From the NCBI GenBank assembly GCA_028279805.1, contig JANQMZ010000007.1:270001-302000 (forward strand): a DNA stretch of 32,000 nt, given 5' to 3'. A program made the translations under genes and the position numbers. Position 1 is the stretch's first letter. Every line of letters starts with the position of its first letter. A model generated the notes under the pieces. That model searched no databases. It was not told the DNA's origin and was given only the letters and a program-made list of their open reading frames with translations. Below are positions 7,768 through 27,750 of this stretch, piece by piece. The stretch is from an archaeon. Its GTDB lineage: Archaea; Iainarchaeota; Iainarchaeia; Iainarchaeales; JANQMZ01.

Positions 7768-8340
7768 TTATTTGAAAGATTTGCCGCAGCCACAGCTTGC
7801 GCTTGCATTTGGGTTGGAAATCTTAAAACCGGATTCGTTTAAAGTGTCCAAATAATCGATTCTTATTCCCTGCAATTGTTCCAATTTGTCTTTTGGAATG
7901 AAAACTTTTATTCCTTCAATCTCAAATTCCTTGTCTTCAGGTTCTTTTTTTTCTTTTAAATCCAGCAAATAATGCATTCCCGCACAGCCGCCCGGAGCAG
8001 CATCAATTCTTAATCCGGCGCCGTTCTCTGAATTTTTTTGAATTAAATCTTTTAATTTTTCAACCGCTCTCGGAGTCAAATCAATGTCTTTTTGTTCTGC
8101 CGGTTCTTCTTTTTGTTTTTTTGCAGCCAGATTATTCAAATCTTTTAACAAATCATTAATTGTTTTTTCATCCATTCCGTGAGCCATTGCCCCGGCCTCA
8201 ATTGATTCAAACGGATTGACATGGCATCCGACGCAATGCAATCCATAACTTAGCATTACTTCAACGCTGTCAGGATATTTTTGAACCAGGTCACCAATAA
8301 TCATGTCCCCTTTGATTAATTGTTTTTGTTCTGTTTCCAT
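7768..8340 (-). CDS. DUF1858 domain fused to an IscA/HesB-type Fe-S assembly domain
   Basis: The N-domain contains YGLHCVGCHVNPFESIEAGAMAHGMDEKTINDLLKDLN. After a Lys/Glu linker comes GLRIDAAPGGCAGMHY...NPNASASCGCGKSF, the IscA Cys triad. The start is taken at METEQ (8340). Confidence 0.75.
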   Translation of the reverse strand: METEQKQLIKGDMIIGDLVQKYPDSVEVMLSYGLHCVGCHVNPFESIEAGAMAHGMDEKTINDLLKDLNNLAAKKQKEEPAEQKDIDLTPRAVEKLKDLIQKNSENGAGLRIDAAPGGCAGMHYLLDLKEKKEPEDKEFEIEGIKVFIPKDKLEQLQGIRIDYLDTLNESGFKISNPNASASCGCGKSFK

Positions 8341-8370
8341 AAACTTACACAAGTATTGCTTCAAAACAAG

Positions 8371-8385: not shown

Positions 8386-9084
8386 TTAAGGATTTTTTCT
8401 TTCTACAATTTCAGGACCATGTTCTTCAATGAACCGCATAGCCTGATCACACAAAACATTAATAGTGCGGGCAATATTAATTTTTTCATTACTTTTTTCA
8501 GTTCTGTAAAATGCTTCAGTGAAAAGCTCAATTAAAGCTACATGTTTTTCAATTGAATTAAGGCTTAGGCTTATTGATATTGCTTCAAATCTTCTTGAAA
8601 CACCAGTATTATGTAAAGAGGGCACAACTTCCCAGAAAACTCTTTCAACAGTTTCAAGATCTTCTCTCAAAGCGTCATTCAAATAATCAAAGTCTCTTTG
8701 CCTGTCCGGCTTTGCTTCAGACGGTTTTTCGATTTCAACTCCAGAATGCCTTTTACTTTTTATACCCATTCCCAATTCTTTTTCAACATGCGCAGACAAC
8801 ATTTTAATTAACCTGAACAAATCAAAAATTTCATTATTTTCCCGGGCATGATACAAAGCTTCATTGCAAATTTTAATTAATCCCATATTTTCTTCCAGAA
8901 TAGACAAATGCTTGTTTTGCTCAAGTGCTTTTAATTTTCGAATTGTTTCAGAATTAACCAGTGATGGAAATTTTTCAGCATTTTCAAATTCTTTTCTGAG
9001 AAGAAATGCAGTAAATTTACCAAATCCGGTATATTCTGGATTATCGGATCTTCTTCGCTTAGGAGTTGTTCTTTTTTGACGCAT
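8386..9084 (-). CDS. Uncharacterised helical protein A (232 aa) with basic N-tail, member of a tandem paralogue trio
   Basis: The start is taken at MRQKRTTPKRRR (9084). The track's 9150 start would overlap the upstream gene. Contains KFPSL, then IKICNEAL 27 aa later, and ends VERKNP. Confidence 0.7.
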   Translation of the reverse strand: MRQKRTTPKRRRSDNPEYTGFGKFTAFLLRKEFENAEKFPSLVNSETIRKLKALEQNKHLSILEENMGLIKICNEALYHARENNEIFDLFRLIKMLSAHVEKELGMGIKSKRHSGVEIEKPSEAKPDRQRDFDYLNDALREDLETVERVFWEVVPSLHNTGVSRRFEAISISLSLNSIEKHVALIELFTEAFYRTEKSNEKINIARTINVLCDQAMRFIEEHGPEIVERKNP

Positions 9085-9094
9085 AACAAAAACC

Positions 9095-9442
9095 TTAAGG
9101 ATTATTTCTTCTGGCTGATTCGCCGGATTTTTCCAATTGCTGAGCCTCAATATACAAATCGCTTAGATACCATCTGATTTGTTTTTTTTCCTCTTCACTT
9201 TCAATATTTGCTTCAACTTCTTCTTCTAAAATTTTAATTTCCGCTCGAATTTTTTCAAGCTCTGGCAAATGAATATTTTCCTGAACAATTTGAAGTTTTT
9301 CAGCAACACTTTTTGCATCCCTAAGAGAAGGAAACCATTTCTGCAGATTAAGAGTTTGTGCAAGTATTTGCTCTTCCCTTTCAGGATTCACCGATTTTTT
9401 AATCCTGCCCGTTTTTCTTTCCGTTGGTCTTCGTTCATGCAT
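9095..9442 (-). CDS. Uncharacterised helical protein B (115 aa) with basic N-tail, trio member
   Basis: Begins MHERRPTERKTGRIKK, contains WFPSL, then IKILEEEV 28 aa later, and ends ARRNNP. Its stop lies 10 nt upstream of the start of protein A. Confidence 0.7.
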   Translation of the reverse strand: MHERRPTERKTGRIKKSVNPEREEQILAQTLNLQKWFPSLRDAKSVAEKLQIVQENIHLPELEKIRAEIKILEEEVEANIESEEEKKQIRWYLSDLYIEAQQLEKSGESARRNNP

Positions 9443-9457
9443 AAAATCACTTTTAAT

Positions 9458-9784
9458 TTATTTTTCCACACCCTTTAATATTTCTGCCATTAAAACGGAT
9501 CGTTCTATGATTGCGTTAACAAAAGATTTTTCGTAGCTTGTTACAGCCCAGGGAAGAACTTCTTCTCTCAAAATTTGAATAGTGCTTAAAACAACTTCAT
9601 GCCTGGAATTACTTCTTACCTCAGCTTCTAAAAGTTGTCGGGCAATTTCATGAGGATTTGGAAGAAAAGGAAAGTCTTTTCTTAATTCCTTAGTTGCTTT
9701 ATTCAAAGGTTTCTTAAAAGGAAAAAAACTATGCAATTCATCAAAAGTTATTTCCCGGTTTCTTCTTTTTTCATGTTTTGGCAT
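9458..9784 (-). CDS. Uncharacterised helical protein C (108 aa) with basic N-tail, trio member
   Basis: Begins MPKHEKRRNRE, contains DFPFL, then IQILREEV 27 aa later. It starts 34 nt after the nth stop, and its stop lies 15 nt upstream of the start of protein B. Confidence 0.7.
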   Translation of the reverse strand: MPKHEKRRNREITFDELHSFFPFKKPLNKATKELRKDFPFLPNPHEIARQLLEAEVRSNSRHEVVLSTIQILREEVLPWAVTSYEKSFVNAIIERSVLMAEILKGVEK

Positions 9785-9818
9785 AAAAGAATACTGTTTG
9801 CGTTGTTTATAAGTTTTT

Positions 9819-10484
9819 TTAAACCAGAGAACTTGGGCATAATTTGTTTATAACACAATTTTTACAATCCGGCTTGCGTGCCTGGCAAATTTTGCGCCCG
9901 TGCCAGATTAAAGTTGAATTGATTTTTGGCCAGTCTTTTTCGTCAATTAATTTTAACAAATCCTGTTCAATTTTGTCAGGATTTTTTTCTGTGCTAAAAA
10001 ACATGCGATTGCTTAAACGTTTTACATGAGTGTCAACTGCGATTCCGACCGTTTTGCCAAAACCATATGACAAAACAATGTTGGCGGTTTTTCTTGCAAC
10101 TCCCGGCAGAGTAATTAATTCTTCCATTGTTTTCGGAGTTTTTCCGTTAAATTCTTTTACAATTTTTTTTGAAGCATTTTTAATATTTTTAGCTTTTGCG
10201 TTAAAAAAACCGGTTGATTTGATTAAACGTTTTAATTCTGTCAAATTTGCAGAAGCAAAATCCTGCGGAGTTTTAAAGCGTTTAAAAAGTTCCGGTGTTA
10301 CTTTGTTCACGCGTTCATCAGTGCATTGAGCTGAAAGAATTGTTGCAACCATTAACTGAAAAGGGTTTTTATGGGTTAAAGCTGTGCCGGGAGCATATTT
10401 TTGTTTTTCAAGTTTTTTTAAAATTTTTTCAGCTCTTTTTTTGCGTTTTTGAAAAGATTCTTTTTTTGCATCTGAAAAATTCAT
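9819..10484 (-). CDS. nth: Endonuclease III (DNA glycosylase / AP lyase)
   Basis: Helix-hairpin-helix LPGVARKTANIVL, the catalytic-Asp region VDTHVKR, and the C-terminal 4Fe-4S loop CQARKPDCKNCVINKLC. Confidence 0.9.
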   Translation of the reverse strand: MNFSDAKKESFQKRKKRAEKILKKLEKQKYAPGTALTHKNPFQLMVATILSAQCTDERVNKVTPELFKRFKTPQDFASANLTELKRLIKSTGFFNAKAKNIKNASKKIVKEFNGKTPKTMEELITLPGVARKTANIVLSYGFGKTVGIAVDTHVKRLSNRMFFSTEKNPDKIEQDLLKLIDEKDWPKINSTLIWHGRKICQARKPDCKNCVINKLCPSSLV

Positions 10485-10993
10485 TGTTTTTCAACTTTTA
10501 TTAAAATTTTTTTACCGATAACAGGAATAAGTTTTTGCAATTCAATTTCAACATCTTTTTTTAACAAAATTTGGTCAGCTGATTTGTCAGGAAGTTTGCC
10601 GTTGACCTGAAAAACATAAAAGCCTTTTTTTCCGTCAACGGATGTGATATAAATTCCGTCAGGTTTTTTTTCAACACCCAGCCCTGAAACTTTTTTTAAT
10701 GCGTTTAACAGGGAATCCCCTTCCTTAACCTGAACAGTAAAAGGTTTTTCAACCAAATTCCAGACTTTTTCAATTGGTTTCATTGCATTTCTTTTAAGTT
10801 TTAAAACATGGGTGTTGCCAATTTGCTCTCTTTCAATCAAACCTGCTTTTTCCAAAACAAGAATATGTTTTAACGCAACAGGTGTTGAAATTCCGAGTTC
10901 TTTGGCTAAAGCGGAAATATGCATGTTTTTTTTAAGCAAAATTTTCAGAATATTTCTCCTGTTTGCATTTCCCAAAACTTTAAACAAATCCAT
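10481..10993 (-). CDS. ArsR-family winged-HTH fused to a DUF4430-like (transcobalamin beta-domain-like) C-terminal domain
   Basis: The N-domain is LGNANRRNILKILLKKNMHISALAKELGISTPVALKHILVLEKAGLIERE. The C-domain VQVKEGDSLLNALKK...GIYITSVDGKKGFYVFQVNGKLPDKSADQILLKKDVEIEL follows my recollection of the DUF4430 pattern. Its stop overlaps the nth start (ATGA). Confidence 0.6.
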   Translation of the reverse strand: MDLFKVLGNANRRNILKILLKKNMHISALAKELGISTPVALKHILVLEKAGLIEREQIGNTHVLKLKRNAMKPIEKVWNLVEKPFTVQVKEGDSLLNALKKVSGLGVEKKPDGIYITSVDGKKGFYVFQVNGKLPDKSADQILLKKDVEIELQKLIPVIGKKILIKVEKQ

Positions 10994-12592: not shown

Positions 12593-13087
12593 TTATTTGT
12601 TTAGCCTTTCACCAATAAAAAAGTGAAGAGCTGCTTCGGATTCAGGGTTAAAAAAATTTTGCTGTTTAAGTTTTTCAACTGCTTTGGGAATGCTTGCAAG
12701 ATGAACCGCTTCCAATATTCCACGAGCCTGTTCCTCTGTTAATCCTTTTGCAGTCAAAGCGAATACTGCAGTTGGAGAGCCTGCAAGTTCTCTTGCAAAA
12801 GCTTCAAAAACTTTTAAACCAGCTCTTTCATAAAGTGGTGCCGCACGAGCAAAATCAGAACTTTTTGCAAGTTCATGTGCATAAACCGCATCTCTTTTTT
12901 TTTCAAGCCTTTTAACTATATCAGGTTTTGCACCGGATTCTCTTGCTATTGAAAGCTGATTTTCAGTTTCTCTTTTAGCTATTTGAAACTGCCTGTTTCT
13001 TTCACTCGGAGTTTTTGCAATTCTTAACCCTTCAATTGAAGGGAGGCCATATTGTCTCCGTATAGTTTTTTTGTTTGGAATAGGCAT
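12593..13087 (-). CDS. Uncharacterised Ala-rich helical protein E (164 aa) with basic N-tail
   Basis: The start is taken at MPIPNKKTIRRQ (13087). A TTTAAATAT TATA-like element lies about 37 nt upstream on the minus strand (13124-13132). No family was recognised. Confidence 0.6.
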   Translation of the reverse strand: MPIPNKKTIRRQYGLPSIEGLRIAKTPSERNRQFQIAKRETENQLSIARESGAKPDIVKRLEKKRDAVYAHELAKSSDFARAAPLYERAGLKVFEAFARELAGSPTAVFALTAKGLTEEQARGILEAVHLASIPKAVEKLKQQNFFNPESEAALHFFIGERLNK

Positions 13088-13150
13088 AAAAAAACACCAA
13101 TAATAAAATAATGTTAACAAGTTATATTTAAACCTGAAGTTGAAAGGGGC

Positions 13151-13184
13151 TTTGTACTTTTATTCGTTTTTGTACTTTTATTCG
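13151..13184. repeat. Tandem direct repeat, 2 x TTTGTACTTTTATTCG with an 18-bp period, in a divergent promoter region
   Basis: Exact 16-nt copies at 13151-13166 and 13169-13184, between the divergent starts at 13087 (-) and 13273 (+). Confidence 0.8.
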
Positions 13185-13244
13185 GATATTTTTGAATGCT
13201 TTTTTAAGGTTTTGAAAATTTGGCTGAAACCGTGAAACATAGTT

Positions 13245-13252
13245 ATTTATAT
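13245..13252 (+). promoter_or_regulatory. TATA-box candidate giving a near-leaderless transcript for protein F
   Basis: ATTTATAT ends 21 nt upstream of ATG 13273. This spacing fits archaeal TATA-to-TSS distances. Confidence 0.35.
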
Positions 13253-13272
13253 GATAAAAAGGCAATTAAGGT

Positions 13273-13659
13273 ATGGCTAGGGCTCCGAGGCAGATTGGGC
13301 ATAAACCTTTTGATAGAAAAAGATTGTCTATGTGGAACAGTATTTCATCTGAAGGGCTTTTAAAAAAAAGGGAAGAATATGCTTTTGAAATACTTCCGGA
13401 ACTGCTTTATGAAGCAAATAATGGAAATCGTGAGGCAAGAAGGCAGCTGGCTGAAAGTTCTCAGGATTTGATTGAAATTGAAAGGCTTTTAAGGGAAAGA
13501 AATGTTTCACCGGGAGGCGTTTCTGAAAAGGCTAAAAGGCAGAATGTTCTTCGAGCAATTGAAGAAGCTGAAACAAAATTATCAGAATCTGAAAACCAGA
13601 TTGAAAAAGAAATTCTTGAAAGCAGGTTAAAAGCTTTAAAAGAATTATTATCAGGATAA
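13273..13659 (+). CDS. Uncharacterised helical protein F (128 aa) with basic N-tail
   Basis: Begins MARAPRQIGHKPFDRKRL, followed by a charged helical body (IEIERLLRERN..., EKEILESRLKALKELL). The antisense ORFs are low-complexity. Confidence 0.6.
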   Translation: MARAPRQIGHKPFDRKRLSMWNSISSEGLLKKREEYAFEILPELLYEANNGNREARRQLAESSQDLIEIERLLRERNVSPGGVSEKAKRQNVLRAIEEAETKLSESENQIEKEILESRLKALKELLSG

Positions 13660-13673
13660 AATTTGAACAAATT

Positions 13674-13931
13674 CTAAGGCTTTCTTCTGCCTAAAAGAAT
13701 TTTTGCTTTTTCTTCATGTTGCTGTGCTTTTTCAACGTTTCCTTCTTTTCTTAGTCTTTGCGCTTCACTTTGATGTGCTCCGGCTGCAGATTCCCATAAT
13801 CCGAGTTGTTGATAACGTTCTGCCGCTCCTATAAAATTGCCCTGAGCCATTAAATTGTTTGCTTTTGTAAGCCCGCCCAAACGTTCCTGTAAATGTTCGC
13901 TTGTTTCCGTTCTTCTTCGTCTTAATGCCAT
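13674..13931 (-). CDS. Uncharacterised TPR-like helical protein G (85 aa) with Arg N-tail
   Basis: The start is taken at MALRRRRTE (13931). The TPR-like segment is ANNLMAQGNFIGAAERYQQLGLWESAAGAH. It ends LLGRRKP. Confidence 0.55.
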   Translation of the reverse strand: MALRRRRTETSEHLQERLGGLTKANNLMAQGNFIGAAERYQQLGLWESAAGAHQSEAQRLRKEGNVEKAQQHEEKAKILLGRRKP

Positions 13932-14010
13932 TTTAGAAATAAGATTAAAGTGATTAATAAACATGCCTTTTGCATTATTAATAAAAAGAATTGGTTTCAA
14001 ATAAAGTCAA

Positions 14011-14442
14011 ATGAAAAACAAAACTTTTATGGTAATAATTTTTGCACTGATTTTAATAGCGGGATGTACCAATGGAACAGATGTAAAAAAAGAGAAACAG
14101 GTAAAAGATGAAGATTTGCCTGACAAAACCATAAAACCTTACATTGTAATAAGCATTCAGGAATTAAATGAAGATGCGGTAAGTTATACCGGTGAAAAAG
14201 TTTTACTTGAAGGATTTTTCGGTCATAAAAATTTTTACGGAAACACCGGAATGTCTTATTTGATAACAGATTATGGTTTGTTTTTAGTTGACCAGCCATT
14301 GCCTGTGAAAAGTTTTGTAAGGCTTGACGGAGAAATCCCGGTTGAACATGATTCAAAACAAATAAAAGTTATTGGAATTGTTCAGCAAGCTGATGACAAA
14401 ATAACTGTTATTGTTGTTGAATCTTTTGAGGTGAAAGAATGA
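14011..14442 (+). CDS. Secreted protein with signal peptide and lipobox-like Cys (LIAGC)
   Basis: Begins MKNKTFMVIIFALILIAGCTNG. The beta-rich mature part may be OB-like, which is a guess. Its stop overlaps the next gene's start (ATGA). Confidence 0.6.
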   Translation: MKNKTFMVIIFALILIAGCTNGTDVKKEKQVKDEDLPDKTIKPYIVISIQELNEDAVSYTGEKVLLEGFFGHKNFYGNTGMSYLITDYGLFLVDQPLPVKSFVRLDGEIPVEHDSKQIKVIGIVQQADDKITVIVVESFEVKE

Positions 14443-15479
14443 AAAAAATTTTCACCGCATTATTGTTTTCAGTTTTTTTAATTGCAGGAGCTTTTTTTGC
14501 AAATGCAGATTTTGAATTAAACACAGCTGAAGATGACTGTAAACTTGCAATAATAATTAATGGCGCAGTAAAAGCGGATGATGACCATATTCGTTACTGG
14601 AATGCGGTTAAACAAAAATGGGCTTATCTCGAAGGAGAAAATTTTACTCCTTCAAATATTTATGTGCATTATACCAATGGAACCGGCAGAGATGATTCAG
14701 GAATTGTTGATGGCCCGGCTTCAGGTGAAAGCATTCTTGAAACATTTGAAGCAATAGCTCAAAAAATAAGAGACTGTGAATCAAGAGGAAAAAGAGCAGA
14801 GGTTCTAATTCTTGTAACAGACCATGGTTTAAGCGTTCAGGGAACAGCAGGAATTCCTCTTGAAGGAGGAGACATTTTGTATCCGGATGCTTTGGCTGAT
14901 TTAATAAGAACATTAAAGGATGCGGGAACAGTTGATGTTTGGGTTGAATTGGGACAATGTTTTAGCGGCGGTTTTATTGATGATTTGGAAAATGTTGCAA
15001 ACGGTGTTGCGGCTTCAACAGGAGCAGACCAGAATCATTACAGCACCAGGGATAGAATGAGGTTTGAATATTATTTTATGGCTGCATTGGATGGAAATTA
15101 TCCTGATGGAAACGTGGTTACAGGCGTTCCTTCAACCGGCAACCCATGGCAGGATGCATGGGAGTTTGCCAAAAGAAAATACCAGGAAGAACTGGGTTCC
15201 GGTGAAATTTCTGAACCGGTTTATGGCGGTTCAGGAATTCCAAATTATTGTGGCAATGGTGTTGTGGATGACGGAGAACAATGTGATATTGCTTTGGAAA
15301 CAAATTCTTGCAGTGAAAAACAGGAATGTTCAAATGAATGCCAGTGCCAGAATTTGTGCGGAAACGGACAAATAGATGAAAGTGAAGAATGTGACATATC
15401 AGATGATTCCGACCAGTTTCAATGTTATGATGAGGGTTATTGCAGTGAAACTTTGTGCAAATGCATTCCTTTTAACTAA
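14439..15479 (+). CDS. Secreted clan-CD cysteine peptidase-like protein (legumain/C13-like) with C-terminal cysteine-rich repeats
   Basis: Signal peptide MKKIFTALLFSVFLIAGAFFANA. A His-Cys dyad follows hydrophobic strands (VLILVTDHG ... about 45 aa ... VWVELGQCFSGGF; compare legumain FTDHG / EACESGS). Two CGNGxxDxxExCD repeats lie in 15249-15476. GAGGTGA sits 4 nt before the ATG. Confidence 0.55.
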   Translation: MKKIFTALLFSVFLIAGAFFANADFELNTAEDDCKLAIIINGAVKADDDHIRYWNAVKQKWAYLEGENFTPSNIYVHYTNGTGRDDSGIVDGPASGESILETFEAIAQKIRDCESRGKRAEVLILVTDHGLSVQGTAGIPLEGGDILYPDALADLIRTLKDAGTVDVWVELGQCFSGGFIDDLENVANGVAASTGADQNHYSTRDRMRFEYYFMAALDGNYPDGNVVTGVPSTGNPWQDAWEFAKRKYQEELGSGEISEPVYGGSGIPNYCGNGVVDDGEQCDIALETNSCSEKQECSNECQCQNLCGNGQIDESEECDISDDSDQFQCYDEGYCSETLCKCIPFN

Positions 15480-19757: not shown

Positions 19758-20756
19758 TTAAAGAAATTCGGCATATTCTGATGCCAGATGCAAATATTTT
19801 TCCACTTTGTCAAGTTCCTCTTCTTTTGCTTTTTCATCTTTTAACTGTAAAAAAGCCAATCCGGCTACTTTTGAGCGTACATTGGCACGATAACTTTTAT
19901 ACAGGTTTAAAAGTTTTGAAAAGCCTTTTTTGTCACCTGAAAGTTCAATGTAATGGTTTACAAATTTTTTTGACAATTTTCTTTCATTAAAAGCATCTAA
20001 ATCCATAGACATGAAAGCAATTTCTGTAACAATATCTGTAAAATTAATATCGTTGTTAAATTCAATGCAGTCAAAAACTTTTATTTCATCTGTTAAAAAA
20101 ACATTTTTTGAATAAAAATCTCCATGGCATTCTTTAACAAAACCGTTTTTTTTTCTGTTCTTAATAAAAGAATTGTTTTTTTCAACAAAATTTTTGCATT
20201 TTTTTATTAATTTGTCCAGAGTTTCTTCCTGTGACAATTCTTTTTCAACCACGCTTCTAATGCTTGACAAATCTTTAATATGTTTAAAAACAAATTCAGG
20301 TGAACCGTAATTTTTTTCCTTAATTGTGGGAATGTTTTGATGAAAATTATTCATAATGCCGGCAAGTTCTAAAACTTGTTTTGTTGAAACTTTTTTTTGC
20401 TCCAGCAGCAAATCCATTCTTTTATTTTCAGGCAATTGTTTCATTTTAACCGCATAATCAACTGTTTTTCCTTTTCCTTCAAAGAATAATGCGTTATCAT
20501 CTGTCACATTTACAATATCCAGATAAACATCAGAGGATAGTCTTTTGTTTAAAAAAATTTCACGCTCGCAAAAAAATTTTCTTCTGCCCATGGTTGAATA
20601 ATCCAGAAAAGAAAATTTTACCGGTTTTTTTATTTTGTAAGCATAATTTCCGGTTAAAAAAACCCAGGAAGTGTGAGTCTGAATCATTTTAATTTCCTGA
20701 ACTTCAAAAGGATAAGCTTCAGGTTTTTTTAATTCTTCAAGCCTTTTTTCAATCAT
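19758..20756 (-). CDS. APH/choline-kinase-fold phosphotransferase, substrate unknown
   Basis: Catalytic loop HGDFYSKN (HxDxxxxN) and metal-binding VFDCIEF. It overlaps the upstream P-loop kinase gene by 8 nt. Confidence 0.7.
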   Translation of the reverse strand: MIEKRLEELKKPEAYPFEVQEIKMIQTHTSWVFLTGNYAYKIKKPVKFSFLDYSTMGRRKFFCEREIFLNKRLSSDVYLDIVNVTDDNALFFEGKGKTVDYAVKMKQLPENKRMDLLLEQKKVSTKQVLELAGIMNNFHQNIPTIKEKNYGSPEFVFKHIKDLSSIRSVVEKELSQEETLDKLIKKCKNFVEKNNSFIKNRKKNGFVKECHGDFYSKNVFLTDEIKVFDCIEFNNDINFTDIVTEIAFMSMDLDAFNERKLSKKFVNHYIELSGDKKGFSKLLNLYKSYRANVRSKVAGLAFLQLKDEKAKEEELDKVEKYLHLASEYAEFL

Positions 20757-24618: not shown

Positions 24619-27600
24619 TCAGACCTGTATTGCTTTGATTCTTTCCCTTCTTTTGACAATAATATAATTAACAAGAAGCATTAAAGCTATTTCAAAAATT
24701 CCGACAACAATTGCAATAAAAGTATTTCCCATAAACCTGCTCACAATCATCGGAATTACAACCAAAATTAATGCAAATAAAATTCTCAACAGTTTTCTTT
24801 TTCTTTCAGTGGTTGTGGAAACAATTTCTTTTCCGAACCAATTCCTGCTTAACCTGTAAGCAATGAAAGCAAGAACCAATTCAATTATTATTAAAAACAA
24901 AAACAATTGAATTTCATCTAAAGCTGTCTCCCCAAATAACACTTTTGCAATTTCAATTACACTGCCCTGGAAAAATTCAAACACATTTACAACAATAAAT
25001 TTGTCTTCCGCGGTCAGATCACCACGAGTGGCTTTAACATTATAAACACCTAATTCATCAACAATAAATGAAACCTGCCCGTCTTCTTTGGTAAAAAACA
25101 GTTTAAATTTGCCTGAAGGGAAATCTGTTTTAACGGAAGAACCAACAACAGGCTTGCCGTCCTGGCTTTCAACCGTTACAATCTGCCTGGCGTTGAGCCA
25201 GGTTGTTTCAAACTGTACTTTAATGAAAATTTCCGAAACAATGGCTCCGCTTCCGCCACCACCTCCTCCGCCGCCTCCGGCTCCCCCGCCTCCGGCGCCA
25301 CCAGAACCAGGCGGGCCTGCATTGGAATCTGATTCTCCTATTGTAATGGTTTCTGAAAGCTGATTATTTGTTTCATCAGATTCTTCAATTATGTCAGAGG
25401 AGTCAACAATAAAATAATAAGTAAATGTTCCGTCACCGGGCAAATCTGTTGCAACAACATTTCTTTCCTCATCAGGTTCAAGTGAAAATGTTTCAGATTT
25501 AATCAAAGGACCTGTTGTTGAATCTCTTCTTATTTGTGTTGTAAAAGAACCTGAATCAAAAGAACTGTCATTAAAAACAACACCTAAAAGGTTTACAATT
25601 GAACCTGCCGGTGCAGCTGTAAAAGAATTTGCAATCAAATCTTTTGGTTCAGTGCACTGAACAGAACAACAATAATCCGTATTGCTTGCATCAAGCCAGC
25701 TTCCTGAACATTCTTTAGGCGGCTCACATATAAAGCCTCCTGCGTTTGAACAGGTTGGAGTTGGTGGTCCGCCTCCACCGCCACCACCTTCATCAGGACC
25801 AAAAGTAAAAGTGATTGAGCCTGTTGCAATGTTGTTTGCGGCATCATTTGTATCAATTCTCAAAGTGTTGCTTCCGTTTCCAATTTTGCTTTCAGTATAA
25901 GAGCAACGATAATGGTTTCCGTTATCAGTACAGGAACCCGGAAAAGAAAAACTTGTACTTGCAACAGTGTTAATTGTAACATTTGCATCATTGATTCCGG
26001 AATTTGAATCGTTTAAATCAAAAATAACTGTTTTGGATGAAAGATTGCTTGAACCGTTTGTAGGAGAAACAAATGTTATCAAAGGAACATTAGCATCAAT
26101 CATAAAGCTTGGATTGCTTGATTCGCTTCCCGACAAAAGAGTTGCATCAAAAACATTAATGTCAATAAAATAGTTTCCGTCCGTTACTCCCCTGTAACCC
26201 CATGTATAATTGCATGCAAATGTGTTGTCACCGGATGCTTTTGTACATGACAAATTTGAATCGGTTGGCGTTGTTAAATTGTCATTTGTTACAATGTTTG
26301 TGGTAAAAGCACCTGAATTGAATTCGCTGGAATAAGCTATGCGCACATTCAAATCTTCATTGTCAGGGTCGGATGCATTAAAATCAATTGTAAAAGTGTT
26401 GTTTCTGCCGTTCAGAAGCTGTCCTTCAGGGGCAAAAACGTTTACATCCGGCCTTAAGCTTCCCACTGTTGTTTTGGCATAATATAAGCGTCCGGATGTT
26501 CCTGCATTTGAATCATGATAAATTATGTCAAGCCTGTTGAAACTGTTAAGCCTTTTCATTGTAGTGTAGGGAACACCTGCACTTGCAAGGTTGTCATCAA
26601 CTGAAACAAAATTTGTCCAGTGATTGTTTGCATCATGCCTTTTTCTGTACCCAGGGTATTGTAATGAGGCGGAGCATGTTGATGTTGCACACCTGCCCAT
26701 AACCGCAAAATCATCACCATTTAAATCTGTTAACAAGCCATCACGGTAAATGTTAAACATTGTTTGCGGGTTTCTTGACTCGCTTGTAAAAATGTTTGCA
26801 TCAATGGACCAGTTTGAAGCATTAGAACAGCTTAAACCATCATCACACTGGACAAAAATAGTGTTAAAATCTGCTACGGGGTCTCTGAAAGTTCCTCTTA
26901 TTTCACCTGTTTTGCCGATTGTTACTCCGATTTGTCCATAAATTGTTGAGGGAACATCAAAACTTGTATCGCCCTGATAAGAATAATTTCCGCTTGCATC
27001 ATAAACAGTATAATTAATGTCCGAAACTGTTACACTTGGAAGAATAACAAGTGTTGTTCTTTTGTTTCGCATTATGTGCAAATCCTGATTGATGTCAAAA
27101 GCAAAACTTGGATCACCATGATTAAAATTTGAATCAATCTGCACAGAATACCAGTTGCCTGCAACACCACAGTTTAAATCCAGGTCACATGCAACAAGCC
27201 TTGCAAAATTATTAACTTGTGTGGATAAAAGAGGTCCTGTGAATTGATGAACAATTGTTACAACTGCATTATCCGAATTAACATCAAAACCTGCATCGGT
27301 TCTGACAGAAGTTCCCTGAATACTGTAAGCATTTATCGGGGCTGTCCAGCTTGTTGAATCAAAAATGTTTGAATCAGTTGAAGCTTCCCTGTAAAGTAAG
27401 TTTCCATCACCTGTTCTGTGGCTTAAAGCCATGAAAACAAAAATTTTGCTAAAAGTATCATCCGTTCCAATTTTAACGGAATCCAGAGGCAAAGCCGTTG
27501 TGTTTAAATCAAAACCGGCAGGAGTCCACGAATTTCCATTATCACCTGAAATGTAAAGTTTTACCGTGTTATTGTCATTTCCTTTTGCTACAACTGCAAG

Positions 27601-27750
27601 ATTCTGGTCAGACCATCTTACAATTGAACCTGGTCCAACCGGTGCTGTTGCAAGATTGGATTCAGAATCAATTAAAACAGCTGCAGAAGCAAATGCGGAA
27701 AAAAGAGTGAAAAAAATGAAAATTATGGCTATAATTATGTTTTTGTTCAT
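24619..27750 (-). CDS. Large (1043 aa) cell-surface protein with signal peptide, Asp-box, Ig-like/CARDB-like modules, two poly-Gly linkers and a three-helix C-terminal membrane anchor
   Basis: Signal peptide MNKNIIIAIIFIFFTLFSAFASA. Asp-box SGDNGNSW. Cys knot CSNAGGFICEPPKECSGSWLDASNTDYCCSVQC. CARDB-like ending EESDETNN. About 17 N-x-S/T sequons by manual count. Three hydrophobic helices lie in the last 120 aa. Confidence 0.8.
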   Translation of the reverse strand: MNKNIIIAIIFIFFTLFSAFASAAVLIDSESNLATAPVGPGSIVRWSDQNLAVVAKGNDNNTVKLYISGDNGNSWTPAGFDLNTTALPLDSVKIGTDDTFSKIFVFMALSHRTGDGNLLYREASTDSNIFDSTSWTAPINAYSIQGTSVRTDAGFDVNSDNAVVTIVHQFTGPLLSTQVNNFARLVACDLDLNCGVAGNWYSVQIDSNFNHGDPSFAFDINQDLHIMRNKRTTLVILPSVTVSDINYTVYDASGNYSYQGDTSFDVPSTIYGQIGVTIGKTGEIRGTFRDPVADFNTIFVQCDDGLSCSNASNWSIDANIFTSESRNPQTMFNIYRDGLLTDLNGDDFAVMGRCATSTCSASLQYPGYRKRHDANNHWTNFVSVDDNLASAGVPYTTMKRLNSFNRLDIIYHDSNAGTSGRLYYAKTTVGSLRPDVNVFAPEGQLLNGRNNTFTIDFNASDPDNEDLNVRIAYSSEFNSGAFTTNIVTNDNLTTPTDSNLSCTKASGDNTFACNYTWGYRGVTDGNYFIDINVFDATLLSGSESSNPSFMIDANVPLITFVSPTNGSSNLSSKTVIFDLNDSNSGINDANVTINTVASTSFSFPGSCTDNGNHYRCSYTESKIGNGSNTLRIDTNDAANNIATGSITFTFGPDEGGGGGGGPPTPTCSNAGGFICEPPKECSGSWLDASNTDYCCSVQCTEPKDLIANSFTAAPAGSIVNLLGVVFNDSSFDSGSFTTQIRRDSTTGPLIKSETFSLEPDEERNVVATDLPGDGTFTYYFIVDSSDIIEESDETNNQLSETITIGESDSNAGPPGSGGAGGGGAGGGGGGGGGSGAIVSEIFIKVQFETTWLNARQIVTVESQDGKPVVGSSVKTDFPSGKFKLFFTKEDGQVSFIVDELGVYNVKATRGDLTAEDKFIVVNVFEFFQGSVIEIAKVLFGETALDEIQLFLFLIIIELVLAFIAYRLSRNWFGKEIVSTTTERKRKLLRILFALILVVIPMIVSRFMGNTFIAIVVGIFEIALMLLVNYIIVKRRERIKAIQV
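25243..25317 (-). repeat. G+C-rich imperfect (GGN)n tract encoding GPPGSGGAGGGGAGGGGGGGGGSGA
   Basis: The plus strand reads ggctccgcttccgccaccacctcctccgccgcctccggctcccccgcctccggcgccaccagaaccaggcgggcc. This contrasts sharply with the AT-rich flanks. Confidence 0.9.
25762..25788 (-). repeat. Second short Gly7-Pro2 linker tract
   Basis: Encodes GGGGGGGPP in the sequence DEGGGGGGGPPTPTC, immediately before the Cys-rich module. Confidence 0.9.

What the first reader, a model, noticed from the sequence alone, without database searches (positions are those of the whole stretch)
8386..9784. Tandem trio of unassignable paralogues (basic N-tail, FP[SF]L motif) directly behind endonuclease III
Three consecutive minus-strand genes start 34 nt after the nth stop and are separated by only 15 and 10 nt. 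I cannot place their products in any known family. All three begin with an Arg/Lys-rich tail (MPKHEKRRNRE, MHERRPTERKTGRIKK, MRQKRTTPKRRR). They then share DFPFL / WFPSL / KFPSL, and 27-28 residues later IQILREEV / IKILEEEV / IKICNEAL. The conserved spacing points to real paralogy rather than compositional similarity. The 232-aa member may be a fusion, because its C-half (VERVFWEVVPSL) resembles the C-half of the 108-aa member (REEVLPWAVTSY). The tight spacing suggests an nth-linked operon. The basic tails suggest nucleic-acid binding, so a repair or chromatin accessory role is only a hypothesis.
Basis: partly seen in the sequence, partly recalled or inferred. Interest (0 to 1): 0.7.

Follow-up and report, generated by a model that had tools for sequence, protein, structure and literature searches.

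The report
Orphan DPANN helical proteins, basic tails
The three genes behind endonuclease III are real members of a very rare, uncharacterised archaeal family of small helical proteins with basic tails, but the link to the repair gene is not conserved and their function, probably nucleic-acid binding, is untested.

Summary
The coordinates, gaps (34/15/10 nt), basic N-tails, FP[SF]L motif and motif spacing are all as described. B (115 aa) and C (232 aa) are clear paralogues. A (108 aa) is a very divergent, probable member (p about 4-8e-4 against shuffles).

C is a head-to-tail internal duplication of the whole module (z = 12.8), so the locus holds four module copies. It is not a fusion resembling A's C-half.

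An exhaustive profile search of 1.84 billion representatives found only six outside relatives. Where a source names the organism they are archaeal (one Ca. Diapherotrites). They occur as about 120-aa singlets, tandem singlets or about 240-aa doublets. They share a basic disordered N-tail, [FL]PSLKN[ST], hLSxxE...AFY, EK and a C-terminal RRxxP.

Pfam, NCBIfam, PHROGs, PADLOC, PDB sequences and Foldseek (PDB, BFVD) give no family or fold assignment. None of the five independent outside loci has nth or any other window neighbour nearby. Every first family gene has a TATA-like box about 26 nt upstream of its ATG.

Best reading: a lineage-specific, non-enzymatic two-module helical protein that binds nucleic acid through its tails (inferred). 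The nth adjacency looks incidental.

The parts
9458..9784 (-). Gene A (108 aa): most divergent, probable family member. Basic N-tail MPKHEKRRNRE; FPFL at nt 9662-9673. It lacks the C-terminal RRxxP end.
   Evidence: ORF. Profiles that exclude A score it 9.3-12.3 bits, rank 4 and 2 of 5001 shuffles. hhalign P = 0.0098 over 61 columns. It keeps the invariant P, E, E columns.
9095..9442 (-). Gene B (115 aa): single-module family member. N-tail MHERRPTERKTGRIKK; FPSL at nt 9323-9334; C-terminal ARRNNP. Its core is acidic (net -8).
   Evidence: BLASTP vs C gives E = 2e-4. It scores 28.4 bits against the outside-only profile, rank 1 of 5001. Charge.
8725..9084 (-). Gene C, module 1 (residues 1-120). 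N-tail MRQKRTTPKRRR; FPSL at nt 8959-8970. Helices 21-34, 46-56, 62-77 and 83-106. The disordered linker begins at about residue 108.
   Evidence: 52.8 bits against the outside-only profile. AF2 model with MSA: pLDDT 76.6, pTM 0.74. The ATG at 9084 aligns with the family N-terminus. The longer TTG ORF to 9150 would overlap B.
8386..8724 (-). Gene C, module 2 (residues 121-232, plus the stop codon). VPSL at nt 8614-8625; C-terminal ERKNP. Helices 127-153, 161-170, 177-194 and 198-222.
   Evidence: Cn vs Cc gives SW 94, z = 12.8. 63.8 bits against the outside-only profile. Secondary structure.
9785..9818 (-). The 34-nt gap between nth and A. It holds a TATA-like TTATAAA at 9806-9812, centred about 25 nt upstream of A's ATG. 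This is a candidate archaeal promoter for a leaderless or near-leaderless A-B-C transcript.
   Evidence: Sequence. TATA-like boxes lie 22-40 nt upstream of 11 of 31 gene starts in the window, against a 12% background. An A/T box sits at -33 to -21 upstream of the first family gene at all five outside loci.
9443..9457 (-). The 15-nt A-B gap. It has no TATA-like box and contains GTGAT (Shine-Dalgarno-like), consistent with an internal operon junction.
   Evidence: Sequence. The Shine-Dalgarno reading is inference.
9085..9094 (-). The 10-nt B-C gap, with no TATA-like box. An SD-like AAGGT straddles B's stop codon (about 9093-9097). This is consistent with an internal operon junction.
   Evidence: Sequence. 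The Shine-Dalgarno reading is inference.
9819..10484 (-). nth (endonuclease III). It is a neighbour, not part of the unit. Its ATG overlaps the stop of the upstream ArsR-DUF4430 gene by 4 nt.
   Evidence: HhH-GPD 1e-30. It is absent from all family loci elsewhere.

Best explanation
Shown:
- A, B and C belong to a tiny protein family absent from every family library searched. The outside members whose organism a source names are archaeal (one Ca. Diapherotrites).
- One module is about 110-125 residues. It has a disordered Arg/Lys-rich N-tail of about 15-30 aa, often with a PK[RK] motif and ending in RRx[ST]D.
- An all-helical core of four main helices follows. H1 ends in [FL]PSLKN[ST], and H3 starts at hLSxxE and carries A.IG.L..AFY. 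H4 starts after an EK.
- The module ends in a short basic tail with R-R-x-[NTKR]-P.
- Modules come in twos. They occur as a fused doublet (C, P0004, P0005), as adjacent singlets (P0006 and P0008), or, in this window, as four copies (A, B, Cn, Cc).
- The two copies within a genome are each other's closest relatives.
- AF2 packs the two modules of C into one body.

Inferred:
- The working unit is a dimer or pseudo-dimer of the helical module.
- It is not an enzyme. Only one Pro and two Glu are invariant, and the conserved polar residues sit where helices begin.
- It acts by clamping a polyanion, most likely DNA, with its basic tails. That would make it a lineage-specific nucleoid-associated or architectural protein.
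- In this genome the copies have diverged. B and Cc have acidic cores, and only the N-tails of A, B and Cn remain basic. This suggests a hetero-oligomer in which some modules are purely structural.
- A-B-C are probably transcribed from their own promoter in the nth-A gap. The position behind nth is incidental.
For: - Family and architecture: the profile search of 1.84 billion representatives returned the three window proteins plus six others at E <= 3.4e-5, with one or two matched stretches. Sequences and alignments show the shared motifs and termini.
- An independent profile built from outside relatives recognises Cc, Cn and B.
- Duplication pattern: P5n-P5c 227, P6-P8 208, P4n-P4c 131 and Cn-Cc 94 are each module's best score, or its best among the window's own modules. 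P0006 and P0008 are adjacent genes.
- Structure: the MSA-based AF2 model has pLDDT 76.6 and pTM 0.74, and five models agree (74.0-76.6). The tails (7-22) and the linker (108-130) have pLDDT below 50. The cores score 87-95.
- Charge: outside modules have pI 9.8-11.3 and net +8 to +18. The window's N-tails of B and Cn are +5 each.
- Not an enzyme or known family: only P, E and E are invariant across 12 modules. There are no consistent hits in Pfam, NCBIfam, PHROGs or PADLOC.
- Own promoter.
- No nth linkage.
Against: - No direct evidence of nucleic-acid binding. Basic tails also occur in ribosomal proteins, capsid proteins and protein-docking peptides.
- The window's own copies are only weakly basic or are acidic overall (A +3, B -2, C +1). 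That fits a DNA-coating role poorly.
- The family is extremely rare and patchy, so it cannot be a general chromatin component.
- Dimerisation rests on the pTM value and on the gene-pair pattern. P0007 and P0009 are single at their loci.
- Model coordinates could not be inspected.
- Read-through from nth is not excluded.
Confidence: 0.4

Rival explanations
1. Lineage-specific ribosome- or RNA-associated proteins. The basic N- and C-terminal extensions thread into rRNA or another structured RNA, as ribosomal-protein tails do.
For: The outside relatives are small and very basic, with disordered basic ends. One locus lies about 4-7 kb from the L1/L10/L11/Spt5 cluster, and another lies next to S8e and TFB.
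Against: The family evolves fast (about 20-30% identity between genomes) and is very patchy. It has been duplicated or fused repeatedly, and this genome has acidic copies. All of this is unusual for ribosomal proteins. No ribosomal family matched in Pfam or the PDB. The ribosomal neighbours are kilobases away and appear at single loci only.
Confidence: 0.15
2. Protein-protein adaptor or scaffold. The helical module oligomerises, and the conserved RRx[ST]D and C-terminal RRxxP peptides dock onto an acidic partner or are modification sites, with no nucleic acid involved.
For: The short linear motifs at both ends are conserved even inside the doublets' linkers (PRRSNP|...KERRRTDS in P0004). The window copies have acidic cores that could pair with basic tails.
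Against: No conserved partner gene was found. Flanking small ORFs at the different loci are unrelated to each other and to A, and the neighbourhoods differ completely. A net charge of +13 to +18 on a 120-aa protein is more typical of polyanion binding.
Confidence: 0.15
3. One reading: an nth-linked operon that encodes base-excision-repair or chromatin accessory factors acting with endonuclease III.
For: All genes are on the same strand, with a 34-nt gap after nth. DNA-repair or recombination genes lie within a few kb at two other loci: Hjc, NurA and a HerA-like gene in L032, and Hef in L037.
Against: No nth or other window neighbour occurs at any of the five outside loci. No family member occurs in the 30 nth loci from other genomes. 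A TATA-like box lies in the nth-A gap at the same distance as at the other loci. nth is coupled to the upstream ArsR-like gene by a 4-nt overlap. The repair genes elsewhere are not adjacent and differ between loci.
Confidence: 0.06
4. A domesticated or integrated mobile-element protein, for example a nucleocapsid-like genome-coating protein in the manner of archaeal filamentous-virus capsid proteins.
For: The layout matches: a helical-bundle core plus a basic N-terminal arm, with homo- or heterodimers from tandem paralogues. The family is patchy and fast-evolving.
Against: No relatives were found in IMG/VR viral contigs, PHROGs or BFVD structures (best E = 0.39). The neighbours are housekeeping genes. 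GC is even across the locus (0.339 against 0.32-0.35 nearby). There is no tRNA gene in the window, and none of the window ORFs scanned against Pfam matched an integrase.
Confidence: 0.05
5. Chance similarity or non-genes. The three ORFs are unrelated orphan ORFs in an AT-rich genome.
For: A vs B and A vs C are not significant by BLASTP.
Against: B and C are recognised by a profile built solely from proteins of other genomes, at 28-64 bits. Six outside relatives share the same size classes and motifs.
Confidence: 0.02

Closest known systems
Histone-fold proteins (archaeal and eukaryotic histones, including single-chain histone doublets)
   Same: The logic is similar: a small helical dimerising core, disordered basic N-terminal tails, and both singlet and fused-doublet forms. 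The PK[RK] or [ST]PK[RK] motifs in the tails recall SPKK-type minor-groove motifs. The histone side of this comparison rests on my own knowledge.
   Different: The family is not a histone fold. It has four main helices of 11-24 residues, not alpha1-long alpha2-alpha3. No histone Pfam family matched. No histone appears among the listed Foldseek PDB matches, and none of the matches is significant (best E = 0.27). The family also has a conserved basic C-terminal RRxxP end.
Major capsid proteins of archaeal filamentous viruses (SIRV2-type four-helix bundle with a basic N-terminal arm)
   Same: About 120-135 aa, with a helical-bundle core and a basic N-terminal arm. They form homodimers or heterodimers of tandem-encoded paralogues that coat DNA. 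This comparison rests on my own knowledge.
   Different: There is no structural match in the PDB or BFVD and no relative in viral contigs or PHROGs. The gene context is cellular housekeeping at every locus.
Dps (ferritin-like four-helix bundle with a Lys-rich DNA-binding N-tail)
   Same: A helical bundle plus a basic N-terminal tail used for DNA binding. This comparison rests on my own knowledge.
   Different: No ferritin-like Pfam family matched. The helices are too short for a ferritin-type bundle. There is no conserved set of metal ligands, since only P, E and E are invariant.
AF1432 (PDB 1ynb/1yoy). I recall it as an HD-domain protein; the depositors' name is only 'hypothetical protein AF1432'.
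   Same: It was the best PDB sequence hit for one family profile. The match covers 69 C-terminal residues and ends in ...ERKNP, like protein C (E = 0.034).
   Different: The hit fades to E = 0.89 with the cleaner 12-module alignment. The aspartates of AF1432's SDADKLE stretch align to non-conserved columns of the family. I judge it a chance match.

Membership tests
The new family itself (basic-tail FPSL helical module) | Recognised by a profile built only from members in other genomes | tested here: met
   Cc 63.8, Cn 52.8 and B 28.4 bits, each rank 1 of 5001 shuffles. A scores 9.3 bits, rank 4 of 5001, which is weak.
The new family itself (basic-tail FPSL helical module) | Motif set in register: basic N-tail, [FLV]P[SFT][LI], the E of LSxxE, the E of EK, and a C-terminal RRxxP | tested here: met
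   P, E and E are invariant in all 12 modules, A included. B and Cc end in RRNNP and ERKNP. A lacks the C-terminal motif, and it is degenerate in Cn.
   tblastn of nth and four other window neighbours against all family loci gave no hits. No family member occurs in the 30 nth loci.
Histone fold | Match to a histone-fold profile (Pfam Histone or CBFD_NFYB_HMF) | tested here: not met
   No such hit for any of the 10 members, even at E <= 1.
Histone fold | Three-helix alpha1-L1-long alpha2-L2-alpha3 geometry and structural similarity to solved histones | tested here: not met
   The AF2 model has four main helices of 11-24 residues per module. No histone appears among the listed Foldseek PDB matches, and none of the matches is significant (best E = 0.27).
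SIRV2-type filamentous-virus capsid protein | Structural similarity to solved or predicted viral capsid proteins | tested here: not met
SIRV2-type filamentous-virus capsid protein | Encoded in a virus genome or provirus | tested here: not met
   No relatives in viral contigs. The neighbours at every locus are cellular genes.
HD-domain phosphohydrolase (AF1432-like) | Significant profile match | tested here: not met
   E = 0.034 with alignment A3, but E = 0.89 with alignment A5. No HD family appears in the Pfam scans.
HD-domain phosphohydrolase (AF1432-like) | Conserved H...HD...D metal ligands | tested here: not met
   The only invariant residues are one Pro and two Glu.
Nucleoid-associated or architectural DNA-binding proteins (a functional class, not a homology family) | Direct, largely sequence-independent DNA binding and high cellular abundance | not testable with these tools
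   Only indirect support: pI 9.8-11.3 for the outside relatives, disordered basic tails, and TATA-like boxes at canonical distance.

The most novel reading that the evidence does not exclude
This may be a previously unrecognised class of archaeal chromatin protein, so far seen only in archaeal (probably DPANN) genomes. It would be built on a helical module unrelated to the histone fold, yet follow the same design: a dimeric core, basic disordered tails with SPKK-like and RRx[S/T] motifs, and repeated independent singlet-to-doublet transitions. In this genome it would have expanded to four diverged modules that assemble into a hetero-oligomer.
Probability: 0.2. Interest if true: 0.7.

Novelty: new variant of a known kind. 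Interest (0 to 1): 0.42.

Why it matters
DPANN archaea have tiny genomes full of unassigned genes, and their chromatin and RNA biology has hardly been studied experimentally. This work turns three anonymous ORFs into a defined family with a module definition, diagnostic motifs, nine member clusters and a confident core model. It also yields a testable design rule: two modules per unit, with basic tails at both ends.

If the proteins bind DNA, they would be a new nucleoid-protein family that evolved histone-like features independently. If not, the conserved terminal peptides still point to a specific docking function.

The work also removes a misleading lead. The endonuclease III adjacency is not conserved, so it should not be used to annotate these genes as repair factors.

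Tried and rejected
- Word-indexed homologue searches with A, B and C found only the query proteins themselves.
- Pfam, NCBIfam, PHROGs and PADLOC scans of the window proteins and of all 10 members gave only single-member, sub-threshold hits (Cas5fv_helical 0.0041, DUF5995 0.021, a PADLOC HerA model 6e-4, MutS2 0.023). None recurred across members, so I rejected them as noise.
- AF1432 (recalled as an HD-domain protein) scored E = 0.034 with alignment A3 but 0.89 with the cleaner module alignment. I rejected it. Sub-family profiles against the PDB found nothing.
- Foldseek vs PDB and vs BFVD found no match at E <= 0.001.
- Viral contig scans with A4, P0004 and C found no relatives.
- Both metagenome scans (A4, A7) found no relatives.
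It returned mostly bacterial nth loci and no syntenic archaeal genome.
- I tested whether A might belong to a separate conserved partner family by comparing it with small ORFs flanking family genes elsewhere. No pair reached z > 4.
- Literature searches for the accession numbers, assemblies and run ID found nothing. A DPANN/nucleoid/histone search returned only general reviews.
Full report
**1. What is in the sequence**

Four co-directional minus-strand genes are relevant:
- nth (9819-10484): HhH-GPD 1e-30, HhH, and a C-terminal Cys cluster.
- A (9458-9784, 108 aa).
- B (9095-9442, 115 aa).
- C (8386-9084, 232 aa from its ATG).

The gaps are 34, 15 and 10 nt. A longer TTG-initiated ORF for C (to 9150) would overlap B. 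Its extra residues have no counterpart in relatives, whose N-termini align with MRQKRTTPKRRR. The 232-aa form is therefore the right one, as independent gene calls also have it.

The window is archaeal, with Nre, TYW2/Trm5, DUF63, a KTI12-like kinase and KaiC-like ATPase. It comes from an 853-kb contig.

**2. Is the paralogy real?**

- B vs C: BLASTP E = 2e-4. Smith-Waterman z = 6.2 for B vs the N-half of C.
- A is not significant pairwise (z = 2.7 vs B).
- The strongest signal is inside C. Residues 1-120 vs 121-232 score 94, with z = 12.8.

C is thus a head-to-tail duplication of the whole module. A vs the C-half of C gives z = -0.5. The locus therefore carries four module copies.

**3. Relatives elsewhere**

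Word-indexed searches found only the query proteins themselves. An exhaustive hmmsearch used the four-module profile over 1.84 billion cluster representatives. It returned the three window proteins plus six others at E from 5e-8 to 3.4e-5:
- P0004 (254 aa, two modules): Ca. Diapherotrites, PIU21624.1.
- P0005 (230 aa, two modules).
- P0006 and P0008 (129 and 124 aa): adjacent genes Q7S21_00490 and Q7S21_00485 in one archaeal MAG.
- P0007 (121 aa) and P0009 (122 aa).

All share five features:
- A basic N-tail that often contains PK[RK] and ends in RRx[ST]D.
- [FL]PSLKN[ST].
- hLSxxE...A.IG.L..AFY.
- EK.
- A very C-terminal R-R-x-[NTKR]-P.

In the doublets the linker keeps both the C-tail of module 1 and the N-tail of module 2 (for example ...PRRSNP ERNYP...KERRRTDS...). 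The doublets are therefore fusions of complete singlets.

A profile built only from the outside sequences scores Cc 63.8, Cn 52.8 and B 28.4 bits. Each ranks first of 5001 against shuffles. A scores 9.3 bits and ranks 4th. A profile of everything except A scores A at 12.3 bits, ranking 2nd. hhalign of A against the other 11 modules gives P = 0.0098 over 61 columns spanning FPSL to EK. A keeps all three invariant residues. I rate A as a probable (about 75-80%) but very divergent member.

**4. Duplication pattern**

Across the 12 modules, the two halves of P0004 and of P0005, and the two tandem singlets P0006 and P0008, are each other's best match. The scores are P5n-P5c 227, P6-P8 208 and P4n-P4c 131. 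Cn-Cc scores 94, which is the best score among the window's own four modules.

Either duplication and fusion happened independently several times, or the copies evolve in concert. Both readings imply that having two modules matters. No further copies occur in the window or in the flanks of the other loci.

**5. Structure**

AF2 on C alone gave pLDDT 67.8 and pTM 0.67. With the 10-sequence family alignment it gave pLDDT 76.6 and pTM 0.74, and all five models scored 74.0-76.6.

Each module has four main helices: 21-34, 46-56, 62-77 and 83-106 in the first; 127-153, 161-170, 177-194 and 198-222 in the second. Core pLDDT is 87-95. The N-tail (7-22) and the linker (108-130) are below 50.

A pTM of 0.74 with roughly a fifth of the chain disordered implies that the two modules are placed against each other with confidence.

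**6. Known families**

No consistent hit appeared in Pfam, NCBIfam, PHROGs or PADLOC for any member. One PDB profile hit was to AF1432, which I recall as an HD-domain protein. It scored E = 0.034 and ended in ERKNP like C. It dropped to E = 0.89 with the cleaner module alignment, and the aspartates of its SDADKLE stretch align to non-conserved columns. I rejected it.

**7. Neighbourhood**

The five independent outside loci have entirely different neighbours:
- Hjc, primase, NurA and a HerA-like gene (L032).
- Lon, IMPDH and, at a distance, the L1/L10/L11 cluster (L036).
- TFB, S8e, CGI-121 and Hef (L037).
- A NYN-domain gene (L038).
- NUDIX and GcpE (L039).

tblastn of nth and four other window neighbours against these loci finds nothing. 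Two of these loci sit on short contigs (3.5 and 2.7 kb), so less DNA was examined there. The 30 nth loci retrieved from other genomes contain no family member. Small ORFs flanking family genes elsewhere are unrelated to A and to each other.

The nth-A gap holds TTATAAA centred about 25 nt upstream of A's ATG. The first family gene at each outside locus has an A/T box at -33 to -21. In the window, such boxes lie 22-40 nt upstream of 11 of 31 gene starts, against a 12% background. From established knowledge of archaeal promoters (TATA box about 26 nt upstream of the start site), this suggests leaderless or near-leaderless transcripts with their own promoter.

The A-B and B-C gaps lack such boxes and have SD-like GTGAT and AAGGT nearby. 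A-B-C is therefore probably one operon.

nth itself overlaps the stop of the upstream ArsR-DUF4430 gene by 4 nt. I conclude that the nth adjacency is incidental. Read-through is not excluded.

**8. Mechanism**

Shown: a two-module helical protein family with disordered basic ends, few invariant residues (P, E, E) and no catalytic-looking motif. The conserved polar residues (S/T after PSLKN, S-x-x-E, P-x-E-K) sit at helix starts. I read these as helix caps, meaning fold determinants (inference).

The outside relatives are strongly basic, with pI 9.8-11.3 and net +8 to +18 per module. The most economical reading is a dimeric or pseudo-dimeric architectural protein that grips a polyanion, probably DNA, with its tails. 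I give the functional part a confidence of 0.4.

The window's copies are atypical: A +3, B -2, Cn +7, Cc -6. This fits sub-functionalisation within a hetero-oligomer, but it also weakens a simple DNA-coating model.

The rivals, scored in the rivals section, are:
- Ribosome or RNA association.
- A protein-docking scaffold.
- The nth-accessory idea.
- Mobile-element origin: no viral relatives, even GC, and no tRNA gene.
- Chance.

**9. Comparison and novelty**

The family works like small basic architectural proteins with tails, such as histones, Dps and filamentous-virus capsid proteins. It fails every membership test I could run for those families. At the family level it is unassigned. As a kind of thing it is most likely a new variant of the small basic nucleic-acid-binding protein theme.

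Interest is moderate. The family is real, well delimited and has a neat architecture. However, it is very rare, its function is untested, and the feature that made it look special (the nth linkage) does not hold.

Noticed in passing
window 9819-10484 (-): The nearest relatives of this archaeal nth in the species-representative genome collection are bacterial (Planctomycetota, Gracilibacteria, Obscuribacter-type cyanobacteria; 46-56% identity). The only hit whose record title names an archaeon was 37%. This hints at a bacterial origin for the gene. The search is pattern-based and therefore biased.
   Followed up: no
window 10481-10993 (-) and 10481-10484: An ArsR-type wHTH fused to DUF4430. Its stop overlaps the nth ATG by 4 nt, so nth looks translationally coupled to this regulator and not to the trio.
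   Followed up: partly
window 7768-8364 (-): A DUF1858 plus HesB/IscA-type Fe-S biogenesis fusion lies directly after C. A second small DUF1858 protein, an FNR-like flavoprotein and a ferredoxin follow further downstream. Together they form a small Fe-S/redox cluster next to the Fe-S enzyme nth.
   Followed up: no
window 12593-15479: Five consecutive ORFs (175, 128, 108, 143 and 346 aa) have no Pfam match at E <= 0.01. This is another block of unassigned genes.
   Followed up: no
L032 15041-16765; L036 2432-5236; L037 9066-12346: Three of the loci that carry family relatives have an intein-containing gene nearby: a HerA-like DUF87 ATPase, IMPDH and a Hef-type helicase-nuclease.
   Followed up: no
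L037 2247-2651 (+) and 2824-3060 (-): Two other very basic small ORFs lie 0.9-1.7 kb upstream of P0009: 134 aa starting MPTRPKTKRTTRRMP..., and 78 aa ending ...KRIKRKVRRK. They show no sequence relation to the family.
   Followed up: partly
window 24619-27750 (-): A 1043-aa protein with CARDB and Big_7 domains, probably a surface protein. GC rises to 0.42 at 25-26 kb inside it, against about 0.33 elsewhere.
   Followed up: no
window 19758-20756 (-): A 332-aa ORF whose only Pfam signal is a weak, sub-threshold RelA_SpoT match (E = 0.0023, 18.6 bits against a cut-off of 27).
   Followed up: no
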